From the human T2T-CHM13v2.0 reference genome, Homo sapiens: 64,000 nt of DNA. Below, in pieces: positions 3,632 through 61,084 of this stretch; position 1 is the stretch's first letter; the number at the start of each line of letters is the position of its first letter. The position numbers and the translations under genes are program-made. The stretch is from assembly GCF_009914755.1 (NCBI RefSeq), contig NC_060933.1, one strand, 5' to 3'. Under the pieces are notes generated by a model. The model worked only from the letters and a program-made list of their open reading frames with translations. It ran no database searches and had not been told where the DNA came from.

Positions 3632-3647
3632 ATATAGATATATACTT

Positions 3648-3654
3648 AAAGTTT

Positions 3655-3736
<82 letters not shown>

Positions 3737-3741
3737 ACTTT
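3648..3741. repeat. Compound microsatellite (TA)n(TG)16(TA)n(CA)12(TA)n, self-complementary
   Basis: Read directly from the sequence. Confidence 0.95.
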
Positions 3742-4141
3742 TTTAAACTTCAATTCTTCTGGTGTAATTATTCATTTCCTTCCTTTCTCTTTTTATTAAA
3801 GTTTGAGATTTTATTTTATTTGGATTCTCCAGTTTCAATCTTTCTTTCTTTCTTTTTTGATATAAGAGGAAGAGTAAATAAATACAACCTGAAACAATAT
3901 CAGCCTACTTGGCTCCCTTGGCCACCCAAGGGCAAGGGCAGATGGGTGATGAGGGAGCCAGTCCACGGTGGATGAGTTTTTCTTGTAGTTTTCCAGCAGC
4001 GTTCCAAGTTATCTCTCCAGGGCTGCCATGCAGGCCTTGAGGCCACTTTGAGTAGAGCCCACTGACATCACCTATCTGAGATACTGGGTTTTATGGCTAA
4101 AAGAAATTGCTAGACACTTTGTTTTGTTTCACATATGTCAG

Positions 4142-17095: not shown

Positions 17096-20588
<3,493 letters not shown>

Positions 20589-23050: not shown

Positions 23051-24342
23051 CTTTACCTTCCCTCTGCTCTGCGTTTGGGGATTAGATAAAGTCAGTGAAT
23101 GAGGCAAGAAAAAAACAAGCACATATAGGGCCAAATTACTCTTAAGAAAACTCTTAATTGCTCACTAAGAATACATAGAATAAATCCTATGAAGATACAC
23201 GTCTGTACACTTGTGAAATGTCTCTGATAATGTAAAGCATATAAGTAATATTTTACAGTATTTTAATTGTTAAAATTATTATTTTTCTGAGACACTATTG
23301 TTCAACTCAATTTAAAAGTGTAAATGATGAGCTTCTCCTGAAAATAGAAGATAGGGCCTATGTTTTAACAATATTGGCTAATGAAAAGACATTGTACTAC
23401 TATTACATTTATGACTAGTTTGTGAATGTTTCAATAGAGAAATAAAGCACACTGGGGAAAGAAAAGACATATCTAATTTTAAAAATGAAATGCATTATTG
23501 TAAAATAGTTATGAATGTGAGTGAAAATAAAATTTACTCACCAACGTGTAGGCTATAGCCTAGAAATGCGTCTATTTTTTATGCTATAGACTTTCTGTCA
23601 TGTATCCAACTAAACGTCTCTGTCCTTCTAAGTCTGGAATGTTATGACTCTGAGAAGACATAAATATAGCTGGCACCAACCTAAAATGCAAAGACCAAAA
23701 CACTGAGATAATATTTTATCAACAATCAAGGATATTTAAAGTGAATGTCTCTGTAATGAATTTAGATATAGAAAGTTCTTTAATGGTCGTTGTGAAATAA
23801 AAAGTAAAAAGAACTGATACATGTGAATAACATTTGAAAGGCAGTTAGCACATTTCCAGCAGGCTATTTTTCCAGAAAAGGGGCCAGAAATCTAAATCAT
23901 AAGAATAAAAACTGCTTTTTTTTTTTTTGTAGGATGAATGTTATGTAGGGCTATGTTTCTGAGTAAAAGCCTGATGCTCAGTTCTTTATAAGAATGCTCT
24001 CCTGAAATTATATAAATGCCTGTACACTTATAAAGACCTTAAAATAATTAAAAATAAATTAAGCAGTCATCATAATAGTTAATAATTTTAAATTACATTT
24101 AATATGATAAAGTAGCATACAGTATTATTCAATGCTCTCATCTTTATAATTTATAGGTTATACTGCAATAAATGTAAAGTTCAAAGAATTTTTCTAATTT
24201 ATATTTTGAACATTTTCAAATGCAAGGAAAAGTTCAGGAGTAGAACATTTGAATTGTGTAGTCACCATCTAGATAACAAACTTTTTAAATGTGCAAAGCA
24301 TATATATATGAGCAATGCTATCTCCTCATAAATATGCATACC

Positions 24343-25199
<857 letters not shown>

Positions 25200-48226: not shown

Positions 48227-50237
48227 TAGAGAAGTGTTGCCCAGAAAAGATAATATCTCCCATTCTTATTTTTCATCTAAATATAATTGAATACTTGCTA
48301 GAAAAGTCCAAAAATTCAAACAAAATTAAAAGTAGAATTTGATTCTGAAGGTTTATGGCAAGATAAGGAGGTTGCTGTTGGCCTGTACAGGAAATTGGAA
48401 ATTGTATAATGATCTTGAATATGCAAATATGCATGCCTTTGACCCAAATACTTTTCAAATTTTCATGTCAATGTCTGAAAATGTTTAGAAAGGTCTGTGG
48501 CATCCACATCTCTCTTTGCCAGACAAGGACAGGCTTATTTCTAGATACTTGAGTTCCCTCAAGATTCTTCAGGTTGAATTTACACTACATCATTTCATTT
48601 GTCCTGATCTCTGAGGTCAGCTTTGTCTGCGTCTGAGTTATTGATGATATCTTAGCAATGGAATGAAGTCTTCTTTATCTGCATTTCCAAATTGTAAGCA
48701 AATAATTTGAGCAGAGGTATTGTTCTTCAATTTTTGTCTTTAAATTTCTGCCTACAATGAAACCTCTAAGGCTTTATTTATTCTCCTCAATTTACAGAAG
48801 CACTTCTAGCTTCAGAGAGTTAGCTTAGTTAATTTTGTTTTCTATGTCTAACTTTATCTTCCAGAATTACAAAAAAAAAAAAAAAAAAAAAGCTCAGCCA
48901 AAAGTTTTTGCCTTATGTATTTGTTTTTAACTAGCATTCATATGGTGACTTGATGCCTTCAATGGAAAGTTTACTCTTGCCTATGGGCAAAAGTATTACT
49001 GAGAAAACCAAATCATAAATGGATACCTTTGTGTCAGATTATACTGAACAAGCTTTCCTTTTCTCTCTCAAAGAACTGAAATTTCCTCCTGATGCTTCAA
49101 TCAACTCTTTCAAGACTTGTGTTAAAAAATACCAGTGTACTTCTGCTTAGTAGATAACATTTTAATTTTGCTCTCATTTCTTCATAAAGTCATTTGAAAA
49201 TGAGGTGGATGAAGCCCTGACTCTGACGAAATTGAGGACTTACTTTTAAGTAGATAATGACAAAACTTAGTTCAAGATGGTTGGCAGAGTCTCTAACTGA
49301 AAAGCATACCGATGAGGACAGCAATGAGTCATTATGACATACGGAGCCTCTTTGTTCATCAAAGCATCAACCCAGATGTGTTACCAAGTCCTGCAAGGGC
49401 TCCATCTGTGAGCGGAATATCAAGATTATCCTTATGGGGAGGTTTTCTTGGCAAAGAAACTTGTCACCATTTTGAAGACAGTGAGGGCCTTTGAGATTTC
49501 AAAATAGGGCTCAAGAAAGAGGAATTCTTTTATGAAGTACAGGCCTGCACCCAGCAGCTGAAAATCAGTTGTGAACTACAGTGAGAAATATAGTGGTTGC
49601 ATCCAGTTGCATATTGAAAGGAATGATGAACAGCTGCCAATTCTTCTACGAATGTGCTTAAAATATGAGAAGAATCTGGGGCTAGATCATGTCACTTGAA
49701 TGACACACTGCTTCAGATTCCTTTCTCTGTTTCAAGTCATACATTCACTCAATCATTTCCAAGGCACATGGATTAACCAAGGCTTCTCCAGTTGTGCATG
49801 GTAATGTGATAAGCAACCTTATCCAATACTTCAAAACAAAGTTTAATGTTTGGGAAAAATGCAAGAGTTAGTAGAATACCAACACTTTCTCCAAAAATAT
49901 CCTCTATCTAATATACTTGCAGCATGTCAAGTCTTCCTTTAGTATTGTTAGGGCCAACAGATTTGATTATTAAAGCCAAATCAAAGAGCATATTAATATT
50001 ATGCTTCTTGAATATTTTTCAATTTAAACCAGACAACACCTAAACATAGAAAGATTTCTGTAATTGTGAATGTGGTTCAGTGGCCACAAGGGCATGTTCA
50101 ATAGGTAATAATAAGACATCATTACATGAATTAAAATCCTGAGGATATACAACAGTATCCCATGCCATCTCACATTTACTTAGAATGAGATAATATCTCA
50201 ACATATGGATTGACATTAAAATGTATGTTTATTGAAG

Positions 50238-50239
<2 letters not shown>

Positions 50240-50277
<38 letters not shown>
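50240..50277. repeat. (GT)n microsatellite
   Basis: Read directly from the sequence. Confidence 0.97.
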
Positions 50278-50279
<2 letters not shown>

Positions 50280-51200
50280 ATGTGTGCCAATTGTGGTAAT
50301 TCATAGAATTCTTGGAAACCATATATAAGGGGCTATGTGAAGACCCTCTGGCTGAATTCTTTACAGCCTTCTTCTGGTTAAGTCAGATCAGCAGCAAATT
50401 GTGTAGTTAACCCATTTTAAATTGGCTTTCCATAGAACTGCTTTTACTGAATGATGATGTCTCCAATTTATAGTGAGGATCATTGTAAGAAATAGTTTTA
50501 TAAAGCTTGTTGCTATGTTAACTAATAGATATTATGAAAGATGTTTTTATTACATTACACAGCTTTCTCTGTCTCGCTCTCTGTCTCTCTCATAGCCATG
50601 GGAAAAGTTAATTTTTGTCTTATGGGACACCTTGAAACACAAAGTGAGTCATGTTTCCTTCCACAAGGGTTGCTAGAAGATTTAGAACCATATTTGTGGT
50701 TCACCAAAAATATTGAGTCAATATTTTTGAAATCTTGATCTAAGTAAGTTCAAGCTGCTATTTTAAAGCTGCCAGCTGTTTTCTGCTTCATTTTTGAGAA
50801 GGACTATTTTCTTCATTAGGAGAAATATTTTCATTTGTCTTTTGCAAAGGTAAAGTCAAAAATTTTATTTCAGAATGGAAAACTTTGGACAATATGGGAG
50901 CTAAATTTCTCTCTATATTAATATGAACCTTTGCCTTTCTTTAGGGGACTCATGTCTGTGCAGATTATTACGCCATTGTCTGAAAGAAGGGCCTGAGACT
51001 GAGGGTGAGGGAAAAGTGATGTTCCTCCCTTTTTATTGGGCCCCAGTGAGGGCTGGGTTTCTTGACTTCCAAAAGGGAGGGAAATCAGAGGAAGAACAAT
51101 TCTTCGGTGGGAAGCAAGCTGGAGACTGCCATTAGACTGAGTTTGAGGAAAAGGAGAGACAGGCTGGGAAGAGAGAGACTATGGAGGTCCATAGTTTGTA

Positions 51201-51299
51201 TATGAAAATGGTCAGTGCCTCTAGAATCTGTAGGCTAAACTATGGAGTTTGGCTCCATAGTTTAGCCTACAGATTCTAGAGGCACTGACCATTTTCATA
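51201..51299. repeat. Perfect inverted repeat, 47-bp arms, 5-nt loop
   Basis: 51201-51247 is the exact reverse complement of 51253-51299; loop TTTGG. Confidence 0.98.
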
Positions 51300-52364
51300 A
51301 CCAATTTAAAATTTTCCTTTTCTTTGTGGCAACTTCTTTGTGATAGTTCCCTTACTTTTAGTAAAGTCATATACATTCCAGAAACCGACCTCAAGTGTGG
51401 AATTCCCTAATGTTTGGAGTGAAGGAGTATGGGAATGTAGTGGCAGTCAGGACAAAGCTGGATCTGAGATGGCCAGAAGTGACTTGCCCAAAGTAAGACA
51501 GCAAGCTGAGGAGGGAAGTAGCCCCCAAGATAGAACTGTGGCAGATGGAAGCTTTCTGCAGAGCTCCAGAAACACTCAGAGACAGGAACCTGGAGGAAGA
51601 CTGGATTGCCTGTGGTCACCTGGAATGGATATTTGGATTCTTGCTTTGGATATTAAAGGGAACAGTGAAACACAAGGGCTGAAGTAACTGGGACTTCTAG
51701 GTTACAAGAGTGTACAACTTTGTGGCGTACACTTAATTTACACCTTCAACCCTGGTTCCATCTTATTTTCTCATCCTTATTTTCTTATTACTTATTCTTA
51801 TAAATTTATGTATGTGCTTATTTAATTTTTTAAAGATGTGAATCTATGAGGCTTGGGGGTAACACCAGAAAGGGAAGATATTTTTGGCCAGAACTCATGG
51901 CCACAAAGGCAGCAGACCTGTTACCACCCTGTGCAGAGGCATTTTGGGCTCGATAGATCCAGAGTGCTCCAGTCAAGGGACAACAACACCTACTGCTCTT
52001 ACTTTTTTTTTGGAATGAGCACAAAAATGCCCTTATCAGCAAGAAGACTTCTTATTGCCAAGCTGCCAGAATTTAGGCGGCTGCAGTTTGCAGCAATCCT
52101 GGGAAAACAGCTCCATAACACCTGGAGACTTTGAGGCCAATAGGAAATTGAAGCCCTTGCTGCTAGGGGAAGGATTGGATGCAGGTTTCCTAGTAGGAGT
52201 AGGAGTGGGGCCAGTTCCATTGGATAATCCAGGATGAGCACTTGGATTTTTAAAAAATTAATCCTGCTTATTACTCCATAACATCTTTAGAAATTATCTT
52301 AAGAAAGCAGAATAGAAATAATTAAAAACAAAATAAGAAATAGCATAATGATCATGACAATCTT

Positions 52365-52738
52365 TTATATGGTTTAGATTCGTGTCCCCACCCAAATTTC
52401 ATGTAGAATTGTAATTCCCACTGTTGGAGGTGGGGCCTGGTGGGAGGTGATTGGATCATGGGGGTGGATTTCCCCCTTTGGTGCTGATAGAGTTCTTACC
52501 AGATCTGGTTGTTAAAAGTGTGTGGCACCTCCTCCTATCTCTCTCTTTCTCTTGCCCTGGCCATGTAAGACCTGCTTGTTTCCCCTTTGCCTTCTGCCAT
52601 GATTGTAAGTTTCCTGAGGCCTCCCCAGCCATGCTTCCTATACAGCCTGTGGAACTGGAAGTCAATTACATCTCTTTTGTTTATAAATTACCCAGTTTCA
52701 GGTATTTCTCTATAGCAGTGCAAGAAGAAACTAATATA
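52365..52738 (+). mobile_element. MSTA/MSTB solo LTR
   Basis: ttatatggtttagattcgtgtccccacccaaat...gattgtaagtttcctgaggcctccccagcc...ctaatata; flanks atctt/atctc (5-bp TSD with one mismatch). Confidence 0.92.
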
Positions 52739-59467: not shown

Positions 59468-60279
59468 TTTTTTAAGACTTCTATTTTAGGTTCAGGGGTA
59501 CATGTACAGGGTTGGTTATACAGGTAAACTGTGTGTCATGGGGGTTTGGTGTACAGATAATTTCATCACCCAGGTAGCATAGTACCCGATAGGTATTATT
59601 TCTGTGCCTCTCCCTCCTCCCACCCTGTACTCTCAATTAGGCCCCAGTATGTATTATTCCCCTGTATCTACCCACGTGTTCTCATTGTTTCGGTTCCATT
59701 TATAAGTGAGAACATGTGGTACTTGGTTTTCTGCTCCTGTGTCACTTTGCTAAAGATGATGTCCTGCAGCCCATCCATGTTGCCGTAAAGGACACAATCT
59801 CATTCTTTTTTATGACTGCATAGTATTCTATGGTGTATTTGTACCACATTCTCTTCAGCCAGTCTACCATTGATGGGCATTTAGGTTGATTCCATGTCTT
59901 TACTATTGTGAATAGTGCTGCGAGGAACATATGTGTGCATGTGTCATTATGGTAAAATGATTTATATTCCTTTTGGTATAGACCTAATAATACGATTGCT
60001 GGGTCGAATGGCAATTCTGTTTTAAATTATTTGAGAAGTCGCCACACTGCTTTTCACAATGGCTGAACTAATTTACGCTCCCACCAGCAGTGTATAAGCA
60101 TTCTCTTTTCTCCACAACCTCTCCAGCATCTATGATTTTTTGACTTTTTAATCATAGCCTTTCTGACTAGTGTGAGATGGTATTTCACTGTAGTTTTGAT
60201 TTGCATTTCTCTAATGATTGAGCATTTTTTTATAGGCTTATTGGCTGTGGGTATGTCTTCTTTTGAAAAGTGTCTGTTC
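59468..60279 (-). mobile_element. L1 3' end (L1PA15-16-like), host; resumes at 61085-61265
   Basis: Antisense 3' UTR and ORF2 C-terminus (ORF 59742). Confidence 0.9.
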
Positions 60280-61084
60280 CACTTCTCAAAAGAAGACATT
60301 TATATGGCAAACAAACATATGAAAAAAAGCTCAACACCGCTGATCATTAGAGAAATGCAAATCAAAACCACAACGAGATACCATCTCATGCCAGCTAGAA
60401 TGGCAATTATTAAAAAGTCAAGAAACAACAGATGCTGGTAAGGTTGTAGAGAAATAGGAACGCTTTTACACCATTGGTGGGAATGTAAATTAGTTCACTG
60501 TGGAAGACAGTGTGGTGATTCCTTAAAGATTTAGAACCAGAAATACCATTTGACCCAGCAATCCCATTACTGGGTATATACCCAAAGGAATATAAATCAT
60601 TCTATTATAAAGATGCATGCACATGTATGTTCATTGCAGCACTATTCACAATAGTAAAGACAGGGAATCAACCAAAATGCCAATCAATGATAGACTAGAT
60701 GAATAAAATGTGGTACATATACACCATGGAATACTATGCAGCCATAAAAAGGAATGAGACCATGTCCTTTGCAGGGACATGGATAGAGCTGGCAGCCATT
60801 ATACTCAGCAAACTAACGCAGGAACAGAAAACAAAACACCACATGTTCTCACTTATAAGTGGGAGCTGAACGACGAGAACACATGGACACAGGGAGGAAA
60901 ACAACACACACTAGGGCCTGTAAGGGGACAGGGGAAGGGAGAGAATCAGGAAAAATAGCTGATGCGTGCTGCGCTTAATACCTAGGTGATGAGTTGATAG
61001 GTGCAGCAAATCACTATGGCACACGTTTATCTATATAGCAAACCTGCACATTCTGCACATGTACCCTGGAACTTAAAATTTTTA
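60280..61084 (+). mobile_element. 5'-truncated L1 (older L1PA) with TSD AAAAGTGT(C/T)TGTTC
   Basis: TSD at 60266-60279 and 61085-61098; ends ctggaacttaaaa. Confidence 0.9.

What the first reader, a model, noticed from the sequence alone, without database searches (positions are those of the whole stretch)
51178..51299. Perfect 99-nt hairpin in unique DNA with a template-switch footprint
Seen: arms 51201-51247 and 51253-51299 are exact reverse complements (47/47) around a 5-nt loop, and I recognise no transposon here. Just upstream is a mini-hairpin, ACTATGGA-GG-TCCATAGT (51178-51195), that repeats the apex of the large stem (actatggag / tccatagttt). Inference: a small pre-existing hairpin seeded a fold-back template switch that duplicated 47 bp in inverted orientation. 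Zero mismatches suggest a recent origin or arm-to-arm conversion. The size suits cruciform extrusion or a de novo pre-miRNA/endo-siRNA hairpin that could be expressed from either strand.
Basis: partly seen in the sequence, partly recalled or inferred. Interest (0 to 1): 0.8.

Follow-up and report, generated by a model that had tools for sequence, protein, structure and literature searches.

The report
Perfect 47-bp inverted duplication, unique DNA
A flawless 99-base hairpin-forming inverted duplication sits in single-copy human DNA upstream of SLC24A2, most likely a young copying error of a DNA polymerase of a kind already known by the thousand, with no sign so far that it does anything.

Summary
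Window 51201-51247 and 51253-51299 are exact reverse complements (47/47) around a 5-nt loop. The 8-bp mini-hairpin at 51178-51195 is real and shares a 9-mer and a 10-mer with the apex of the large stem.

The structure is far beyond chance (RNA -99 kcal/mol, z about -19 to -21). It is the only long perfect inverted repeat in complex sequence in 264 kb examined.

It is not a multi-copy element. In the whole T2T genome the arm occurs only as these two arms at up to 3 mismatches, and both 900-nt flanks are single-copy. It matches no Rfam family.

The best reading is a lineage-specific inverted duplication made by a polymerase template switch, either at a replication fork or as snap-back repair synthesis. 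The small hairpin probably took part. This mechanism is documented for tens of thousands of primate loci, so this is a new member of a known kind.

The decisive tests could not be run: no primate orthologues, pangenome or small-RNA data were available.

Zero mismatches limits the age only loosely: still about 57% likely at human-chimp depth and about 5% at macaque depth. The stem is longer and the loop shorter than canonical pri-miRNAs prefer. No function is shown.

The parts
51201..51247 (.). Left arm of the large inverted repeat (47 nt)
   Evidence: Exact reverse complement of 51253-51299. GC 40%, no CpG.
51248..51252 (.). Spacer / loop TTTGG (5 nt in DNA; 3 nt unpaired in the + strand RNA fold because of a U-G pair)
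51253..51299 (.). Right arm of the large inverted repeat (47 nt)
   Evidence: In the whole genome this 47-mer occurs only here and, reverse-complemented, at the left arm, at up to 3 mismatches.
51178..51195 (.). Mini-hairpin: 8-bp arms 51178-85 / 51188-95 with GG between them. It is a partial extra copy of the apex of the large hairpin.
51188..51197 (+). 10-nt direct repeat TCCATAGTTT; second copy at 51254-51263 (66 nt apart)
   Evidence: (family D9)
51178..51186 (+). 9-nt direct repeat ACTATGGAG; second copy at 51239-51247 (61 nt apart)
51198..51200 (.). 3-nt junction (GTA) between the mini-hairpin segment and the left arm; no model tried gives it a template

Best explanation
This is a lineage-specific inverted duplication in otherwise single-copy, non-coding DNA inside the annotated span of SLC24A2. 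A DNA polymerase left its template, copied about 47 nt of adjacent sequence in reverse-complement orientation (from the complementary strand or from the nascent strand folded back on itself), and then returned. That produced a perfect hairpin-forming repeat in one event, the 'template-switch mutation' or four-point model. The neighbouring 8-bp hairpin is a paralogue of the apex of the new stem. The most economical full account is that a roughly 20-nt segment holding a small pre-existing hairpin served as the switch site and was copied twice because the return point lay behind the switch point. One of the two copies then differs by a 5-nt change at its centre. Shown here: the structure, its uniqueness, and the non-random link between the mini-hairpin and the apex. 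Inferred: the event itself, its direction, its age (probably after the split from Old World monkeys) and the seeding role. I take the element to be a neutral by-product. At the DNA level it is a cruciform- or hairpin-prone site, and at the RNA level a 47-bp duplex if transcribed, but no function is shown.
For: The repeat is perfect (47/47) with a 5-nt spacer. Fold z-scores are -18 to -21, with 0 of 200 shuffles as stable. It is single-copy: the 181-nt and 99-nt queries hit only themselves. The 47-mer at up to 3 mismatches hits only the two arms, with 0 hits for the reversed control. The flanks 50300-51200 and 51300-52200 are unique apart from one 52-nt match at 85% identity elsewhere on the same chromosome. 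There were 0 exact matches in the prokaryote and viral collections. The mini-hairpin shares 9- and 10-nt words with the apex, which is rare in shuffles (266 and 65 of 20000). In 264 kb (the window plus 200 kb next to it) there were 9 perfect inverted repeats with arms of 12 nt or more and spacer of 8 nt or less. The 47-nt one is the longest; the 29-, 24- and 22-nt ones are TA/TG microsatellites, and the next in complex sequence has 14-nt arms. Literature: PMC10710096 (Results and Methods read) reports 53,666 putative template-switch events in genic regions on the primate-to-human lineage. Of these, 31,007 made new stems and 6,054 had stems of 30-55 bases. The same paper reports loci hit twice and cases needing multiple switches. 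PMC9435742 (passages) reports 872-1121 such events per individual in unmasked sequence, the longest in complex sequence being 90 bp.
Against: No orthologue, second human haplotype or ancestral reconstruction was available, so the defining evidence for a template-switch mutation is missing. The event list of PMC7954356 (supplement s015.tsv) has no entry starting 19876-19881. In the part of the list I read, the only chr9 entries between 19.0 and 20.4 Mb are 19,158,215 and 20,338,781. So the event is not among their human/chimp-lineage calls. This is weak evidence: my GRCh38 position is estimated from recalled gene coordinates, I did not check their assembly, and the list is not strictly sorted. 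No single switch-and-return explains everything. Models bounded by the 10-nt or the 9-nt direct repeats leave 10 or 4+10 nt without a reverse-complement template, and the zero-residue model leaves the mini-hairpin unexplained (and hand analysis). A 47-nt copy is long for this class, though within its reported range.
Confidence: 0.6

Rival explanations
1. The same product arose from double-strand-break repair rather than at a replication fork. A resected 3' tail snapped back on a short inverted repeat (the small hairpin), was extended on itself by a repair polymerase such as Pol theta, then unwound and joined to the other end (SD-MMEJ / theta-mediated end joining with templated insertion).
For: PMC5728401 (passages) describes snap-back priming between short inverted 'primer repeats' near a break. 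[quoted passage not shown] The abstract of PMC4912351 (listing) describes Pol theta alternating between non-templated extension and templated extension in cis and in trans. The untemplated 3-nt junction (51198-51200), the odd centre of the stem and the partial extra copy of the apex fit such iterative, patchy synthesis.
Against: Snap-back synthesis is described as non-processive, and 47 nt without error is long for it. The sequence alone cannot separate this from a fork-associated switch.
Confidence: 0.2
2. It is a miniature inverted-repeat transposable element (MITE) or another mobile element whose two terminal repeats make up nearly the whole element.
For: The whole unit is palindromic, like some MITEs. 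The outermost TA...TA could be read as a TA target-site duplication, but any palindrome ending in TA gives that for free.
Against: There is no other copy in the 3.1-Gb genome at up to 3 mismatches in 47 nt, nor by similarity search at E up to 10. Both flanks are unique. No direct repeat flanks the element: TTGTA on the left versus ACCAA on the right. Perfect arms would need very recent activity, whereas by recall human DNA transposons have been inactive for tens of millions of years.
Confidence: 0.03
3. It is a functional hairpin RNA gene (a young miRNA, mirtron-like or endo-siRNA precursor, or an ADAR/dsRNA-sensor substrate), whatever its mutational origin.
For: It lies inside the annotated SLC24A2 span (hub table). 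Both strands fold equally well. The 47-bp stem falls in the 30-55 class that PMC10710096 calls miRNA-like, and 0.9% (57 of 6,054) of that class are annotated miRNAs.
Against: No Rfam family reaches its gathering score. The best match, plant MIR1223, scores 40.7 bits against a threshold of 77, and the whole window gave 0 matches. RefSeq annotates no RNA gene here (hub table). The stem is about 12 bp longer and the loop far shorter than the preferred 35-bp stem and loop of 10 nt or more quoted in PMC10710096. A search for SLC24A2 + hairpin + intron found 7 papers, none about this locus by title or abstract. The base rate is about 1%.
Confidence: 0.07
4. It is an old inverted repeat kept perfect by selection or by repeated arm-to-arm correction.
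For: Template switching can also homogenise existing near-perfect repeats (the classic model quoted in PMC5453318; title of PMC8794818 seen in the listing).
Against: Without conversion, zero differences in 94 sites is only about 5% likely at macaque depth and under 1% at marmoset depth. There is no sign of function that selection could act on. The older inverted duplication in the same window (60040-60520) has decayed to about 80% identity.
Confidence: 0.06
5. It is an assembly artefact of this genome.
For: No call supports this. It is listed only because no second assembly could be compared.
Against: A 99-bp feature lies well inside single long reads of a finished telomere-to-telomere assembly (general knowledge). 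The flanks are ordinary unique sequence.
Confidence: 0.02

Closest known systems
Template-switch mutations (four-point model of Loytynoja & Goldman 2017, PMC5453318) and the hairpins they create (Monttinen et al. 2023, PMC10710096)
   Same: It is a short-range reverse-complement copy of adjacent unique sequence that creates a perfect stem in one step. The stem length of 47 falls inside their 30-55 'miRNA-like' class. It lies within a gene span. There is evidence of more than one switch or of a duplicated switch site, which they also report.
   Different: The ancestral state was not observed here. The stem is still perfect, whereas 105 of their 111 miRNA loci had gained later mutations. The loop is very short. 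There is an adjacent partial third copy of the apex. It is not an annotated miRNA.
Snap-back SD-MMEJ / polymerase-theta templated insertions (PMC5728401, PMC4912351)
   Same: A short inverted repeat primes self-templated synthesis that lengthens the inverted repeat. Junctions carry a few untemplated bases and there is patchy re-copying.
   Different: Reported synthesis is short and non-processive, whereas here 47 nt were copied. No break or deletion scar can be seen without an outgroup.
Long perfect inverted repeats and cruciform-prone palindromes of the human genome (catalogue in PMC13155455)
   Same: Perfect arms and a spacer of 8 nt or less, which is exactly their definition.
   Different: Their ten longest human cases have arms of 80-140 bp, and 8 of the 10 have arm GC under 26% (supplementary table 4). 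This one has 47-bp arms, 40% GC and complex sequence, so it is not one of the AT-rich unstable palindromes.
MADE1-type MITE hairpins that gave rise to miRNA families (recalled, not tested)
   Same: A nearly full-length palindromic unit of about 80-100 nt.
   Different: Those are present in thousands of diverged copies. This sequence is single-copy.

Membership tests
Template-switch mutation (TSM) hairpin | Reverse-complement copy of nearby sequence (source within a few hundred bases) | tested here: met
   47/47 reverse complement, source and copy 5 nt apart
Template-switch mutation (TSM) hairpin | Parent/outgroup sequence lacks the copy while the source region is conserved | not testable with these tools
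   No primate or other mammalian genome, and no second human assembly, is held. The genome search reports no relatives here.
Template-switch mutation (TSM) hairpin | Lies in complex, non-repetitive sequence (low-complexity and repeat loci are excluded in the published screens) | tested here: met
   Single-copy arms and flanks. Arm GC is 40%, with 33 of 45 possible 3-mers distinct (diversity 0.73).
Template-switch mutation (TSM) hairpin | One switch-and-return explains the whole difference | tested here: inconclusive
   A pure 47-nt inverted insertion leaves 0 nt unexplained but ignores the mini-hairpin. Blocks bounded by the 9- or 10-nt direct repeats leave 14 or 20 nt without a reverse-complement template, 10 of which in each case are a direct re-copy.
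miRNA-like TSM hairpin as defined in PMC10710096 Methods | New stem of 30-55 bases with the loop in the central third | tested here: met
   Stem 47-48 bp with a central loop. 'New' was not testable.
Canonical miRNA gene | Membership of a described miRNA family | tested here: not met
   No Rfam match at gathering score. The best was MIR1223 at 40.7 bits against 77. The whole window gave 0 matches. miRBase and MirGeneDB were not available.
Canonical miRNA gene | About 35-bp stem with an apical loop of 10 nt or more (as quoted in PMC10710096) | tested here: not met
   47-48 bp perfect stem, 3-5-nt loop
Canonical miRNA gene | Discrete ~22-nt read stacks from both arms | not testable with these tools
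   No small-RNA data held
MITE / DNA transposon | Multiple dispersed copies | tested here: not met
   Only the locus itself was found in 3.1 Gb
MITE / DNA transposon | Target-site duplication flanking terminal inverted repeats | tested here: inconclusive
   The flanks TTGTA and ACCAA are not a direct repeat. A TA/TA reading is possible but trivial for a palindrome ending in TA.
Unstable AT-rich palindrome (PATRR-like) | AT-rich, near-perfect long palindrome with shown polymorphism or rearrangement | tested here: not met
   GC 40% and arms of only 47 bp. Polymorphism was not testable.

The most novel reading that the evidence does not exclude
The hairpin is a very young, hominid- or human-specific and possibly still polymorphic template-switch product. 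Transcribed within long SLC24A2 isoforms in neurons or retina, it would yield a 47-bp perfect dsRNA that is diced into small RNAs or hyper-edited. This would catch a de novo hairpin RNA gene at its perfect-stem 'day zero', before the mismatches that mature miRNA genes acquire. At the DNA level it would also be a replication-stalling, cruciform-prone site whose centre has already been remodelled once.
Probability: 0.06. Interest if true: 0.55.

Novelty: new member of a known kind. Interest (0 to 1): 0.27.

Why it matters
If the ancestral state can be recovered, this locus would be a clean, large example (47 nt, complex sequence, still perfect) of how one polymerase error creates a complete hairpin. 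The neighbouring seed hairpin is preserved, which could show where the switch and the return happened. That would make it a useful teaching or benchmark case for template-switch callers, and a candidate for checking whether new perfect hairpins in introns are processed or edited. It does not open a new question: the mechanism, its frequency and its link to young miRNAs are already published.

Tried and rejected
1. Known RNA family. Rfam with a permissive E-value on 50000-52500 and at gathering score on the whole window gave only sub-threshold hits of generic long hairpins.

2. Repeat family or MITE. Whole-genome searches with 181 nt, 99 nt, the 47-nt arm at up to 3 mismatches, and both 900-nt flanks found nothing but the locus itself, plus one 52-nt match at 85% identity to 50751-50802. 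These searches score only the best candidates and skip very common words, so very old, diverged copies could be missed. Dfam/RepeatMasker was not available.

3. Foreign origin. There were 0 exact matches of the arm in the prokaryote genome collection and the viral contig collection.

4. Published event lists. The PNAS 2023 dataset (miRNA loci only) has no 'chr9' or 'SLC24A2' term. The Walker 2021 lists have no event near the estimated position. The supplements of PMC9435742 and PMC5453318 that list events are PDFs or archives I could not read, and they may bear on whether this locus is a known polymorphic or human/chimp event.

5. Literature on the locus. SLC24A2 + hairpin + intron gave 7 papers, none relevant by title or abstract.

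6. Base rate. I planned a 2-Mb census, but only 200 kb could be fetched (some searches did not complete), so the census covers 264 kb.

8. Single-event reconstruction. I enumerated all ancestors obtained by removing one block of 30-90 nt. It does not single out one history.

9. The window file carries no soft-masking (all upper case), so I could not see whether the hairpin lies in one of the shorter masked stretches that the hub table does not list.

Full report
**Observation**

Window 51201-51247 and 51253-51299 are exact reverse complements, 47 of 47, separated by TTTGG. Complementarity stops at the arm ends. Two mismatched positions follow, then three complementary bases (51196-98 with 51302-04), then nothing.

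The mini-hairpin is present as described: 8-bp arms at 51178-85 and 51188-95 with GG between them. Folding 51170-51310 gives:
- -99.1 kcal/mol as + strand RNA (z -19.2);
- -98.9 kcal/mol as - strand RNA (z -20.6);
- -61.6 kcal/mol as DNA (z -18.2).

In each case 0 of 200 shuffles folded as well. The mini-hairpin appears as a separate small stem in all three folds. The arms have 40% GC and no CpG.

By simple arithmetic, a perfect 47-nt arm pair with a short spacer is expected about 1e-18 times in 3 Gb of random sequence. Chance is therefore not an issue.

**How unusual it is locally**

In the 64-kb window, the repeat finder (seed 12, length 20 or more, arms within 300 nt) returned 41 inverted pairs. 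Of the 25 longest shown:
- 1 is this hairpin;
- 22 lie in two TA/TG microsatellites (3646-3753 and 24818-24920);
- 2 belong to a diverged palindrome at 60064-60497.

I also counted perfect inverted repeats (arms of 12 nt or more, spacer of 8 nt or less, overlaps removed) over 264,000 bases: the window plus 200 kb immediately to its left. There were 9, with arms of 47, 29, 24, 22, 14 and four of 12 nt. The 29-, 24- and 22-nt ones are microsatellites with 3-mer diversity of 0.19-0.30. The next one in complex sequence has 14-nt arms. I had planned a 2-Mb sample, but only 200 kb could be fetched (some searches did not complete).

For scale, a 2026 catalogue of perfect inverted repeats lists the ten largest in Homo sapiens, with arms of 80-140 bp. 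Eight of those ten have arm GC below 26% (PMC13155455, passages and supplementary table 4). The present case is therefore in the rare upper tail for complex sequence, but it is not a record.

**Not a repeat family, not a known RNA**

- In the whole T2T genome, the 181-nt and 99-nt queries match only themselves and their own reverse strand.
- The 47-nt arm at up to 3 mismatches occurs once forward and once reverse, which are the two arms. The reversed control pattern gave 0 hits.
- The 900-nt flanks on either side are single-copy, apart from one 52-nt match at 85% identity to 50751-50802.
- Within the window, a short-word BLAST finds no further copy.
- There are no exact matches in the prokaryote or viral collections.
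- Rfam gives nothing at gathering score in the whole window. With permissive thresholds the best hits are plant miRNA models far below threshold (MIR1223, 40.7 bits against 77), which is the generic response to any long hairpin.
- The hub's RefSeq table lists no RNA gene or functional element here.

One caveat applies. The genome search scores only the best candidates and skips very common words, and Dfam/RepeatMasker was not available. A very old, strongly diverged family cannot be strictly excluded, but such a family could not supply a perfect 47/47 pair.

**Anatomy and what it says about origin**

The mini-hairpin is a relative of the apex of the large stem. ACTATGGAG at 51178-86 recurs at 51239-47, the end of the left arm. 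TCCATAGTTT at 51188-97 recurs at 51254-63, the start of the right arm. A shared word of 9 nt or more arose in 266 of 20000 shuffles of the 60-nt upstream flank, and 10 nt or more in 65 of 20000. The downstream flank shares no word of 8 nt or more.

The mini-hairpin and the apex differ only at their centres: 1 nt between the two shared words in the mini-hairpin against 6 nt in the apex.

I enumerated every hypothetical ancestor made by removing one block of 30-90 nt, and asked how much of the removed block is a reverse-complement copy of what remains.
- Removing either whole arm, or any part of one, leaves 0 nt unexplained. This is a pure inverted insertion next to its template, but the ancestor must then already carry three copies of the 8-10-mer.
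- Removing the 66-nt block bounded by the 10-nt direct repeat gives 46 templated nt, 10 nt of direct re-copy and 10 nt unexplained. The unexplained bases are the 3-nt junction at 51198-51200 and 7 nt at the centre of the stem.
- Removing the 61-nt block bounded by the 9-nt repeat gives 47 templated nt, 10 nt of direct re-copy and 4 nt unexplained.

The last two ancestors amount to one idea. A roughly 20-nt segment containing a small hairpin was the place where the polymerase switched. It was copied twice because the return point lay behind the switch point, and one copy later changed by 5 nt at its centre. I consider it the most economical account of the whole pattern, but it is inferred, and the data do not choose between the variants or say which arm is the copy.

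**Mechanism in the literature**

- The four-point template-switch model describes exactly such switch-and-return events and notes that they create hairpins (PMC5453318, passages).
- Monttinen et al. [quoted passage not shown] Of these, 31,007 created a new RNA stem and 6,054 had stems of 30-55 bases. Only 57 of the 6,054 (0.9%) are annotated miRNAs.
- The same paper reports loci hit twice, cases needing multiple switches, and that 105 of 111 template-switch-derived miRNA loci gained mutations afterwards.
- Loytynoja 2022 (PMC9435742, passages) finds 872-1121 high-quality events per individual in unmasked sequence. The longest in complex sequence was 90 bp.

A 47-nt event is thus large but within the documented range, and the kind of object is well known.

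A mechanistic rival gives the same product: snap-back synthesis during alternative end joining. A short inverted repeat near a break primes self-templated synthesis, and the insert becomes part of a longer inverted repeat (PMC5728401, passages; PMC4912351, abstract in listing). The untemplated junction bases and the patchy re-copying fit it. The length of error-free synthesis argues against it. Sequence alone cannot separate the two.

**Age**

With 94 CpG-free sites, the probability of no difference between the arms is exp(-94d) for per-lineage divergence d:

| Depth | Probability of zero differences |
|---|---|
| human-chimp | 0.57 |
| gorilla | 0.47 |
| orangutan | 0.20 |
| macaque | 0.05 |
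| marmoset | under 0.01 |

The divergence values are recalled round numbers. Perfection therefore points to an origin after the split from Old World monkeys, but it does not show a human-specific or very recent event.

The event lists of Walker et al. 2021 (PMC7954356, human/chimp-lineage events) contain no coordinate starting 19876-19881. In the part I read, the only chr9 events between 19.0 and 20.4 Mb are at 19,158,215 and 20,338,781. If anything, this favours an origin before the human-chimp split, or an event their pipeline does not call. It is weak evidence, for three reasons: my GRCh38 position (about 19.878 Mb) rests on recalled gene coordinates, I did not check their assembly, and the list is only roughly sorted. 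The event supplements of PMC9435742 and PMC5453318 are PDFs that I could not read.

**Function**

None is shown. The locus lies within the annotated span of SLC24A2 (minus strand). The nearest annotated exon of any transcript is at 23542-23680 (hub table). The table does not show whether an intron of the selected transcript covers the hairpin.

As RNA the structure is the same on both strands. Its geometry, a 47-48-bp perfect stem with a 3-5-nt loop, departs from the preferred 35-bp stem and loop of 10 nt or more (quoted in PMC10710096). The base rate of annotation for such hairpins is about 1%.

As DNA it is a perfect, short-spacer inverted repeat of moderate GC content. It could extrude a hairpin on the lagging-strand template. 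The odd centre may record an earlier remodelling, but that is speculation.

**Verdict**

It is a new member of a known kind, with no evidence of function. The decisive comparison with outgroups and other human haplotypes could not be done here.

Noticed in passing
window 60040-60520: A second, older fold-back of the same architecture. 60040-60275 aligns to the reverse complement of 60277-60520 over 248 columns, and the arms meet symmetrically at about 60276. The repeat finder gave 155-nt arms at 81% complementarity plus inner 55-nt arms at 76% with 7 nt between them. Both arms are the same stretch of LINE-1-like sequence (name recalled from the look of the sequence, not tested) and lie inside the hub's masked stretch 59992-60794. 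The symmetry argues for an old inverted duplication rather than two independent insertions.
   Followed up: partly
window 3646-3753 and 24818-24920: (TA)n/(TG)n microsatellites account for 22 of the 25 longest inverted-repeat pairs shown for the window. They include perfect spacer-less palindromes with arms of 29 and 24 nt.
   Followed up: no
window 50705-50729: A perfect 12-bp-arm inverted repeat with a 1-nt spacer, AT-rich (GC 17%), lies 0.5 kb upstream of the finding. It also self-matched weakly in the genome search.
   Followed up: no
window 50751-50802: This is the only part of the flanks with a match elsewhere in the genome: 52 nt at 85% identity to C9:90,881,214-90,881,266 on the minus strand. 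It is possibly a fragment of an old repeat.
   Followed up: no
window 50985-51019 and 51123-51157: A 35-nt direct repeat pair at 71% identity, 138 nt apart, purine-rich, just upstream of the hairpin. It may be chance.
   Followed up: no
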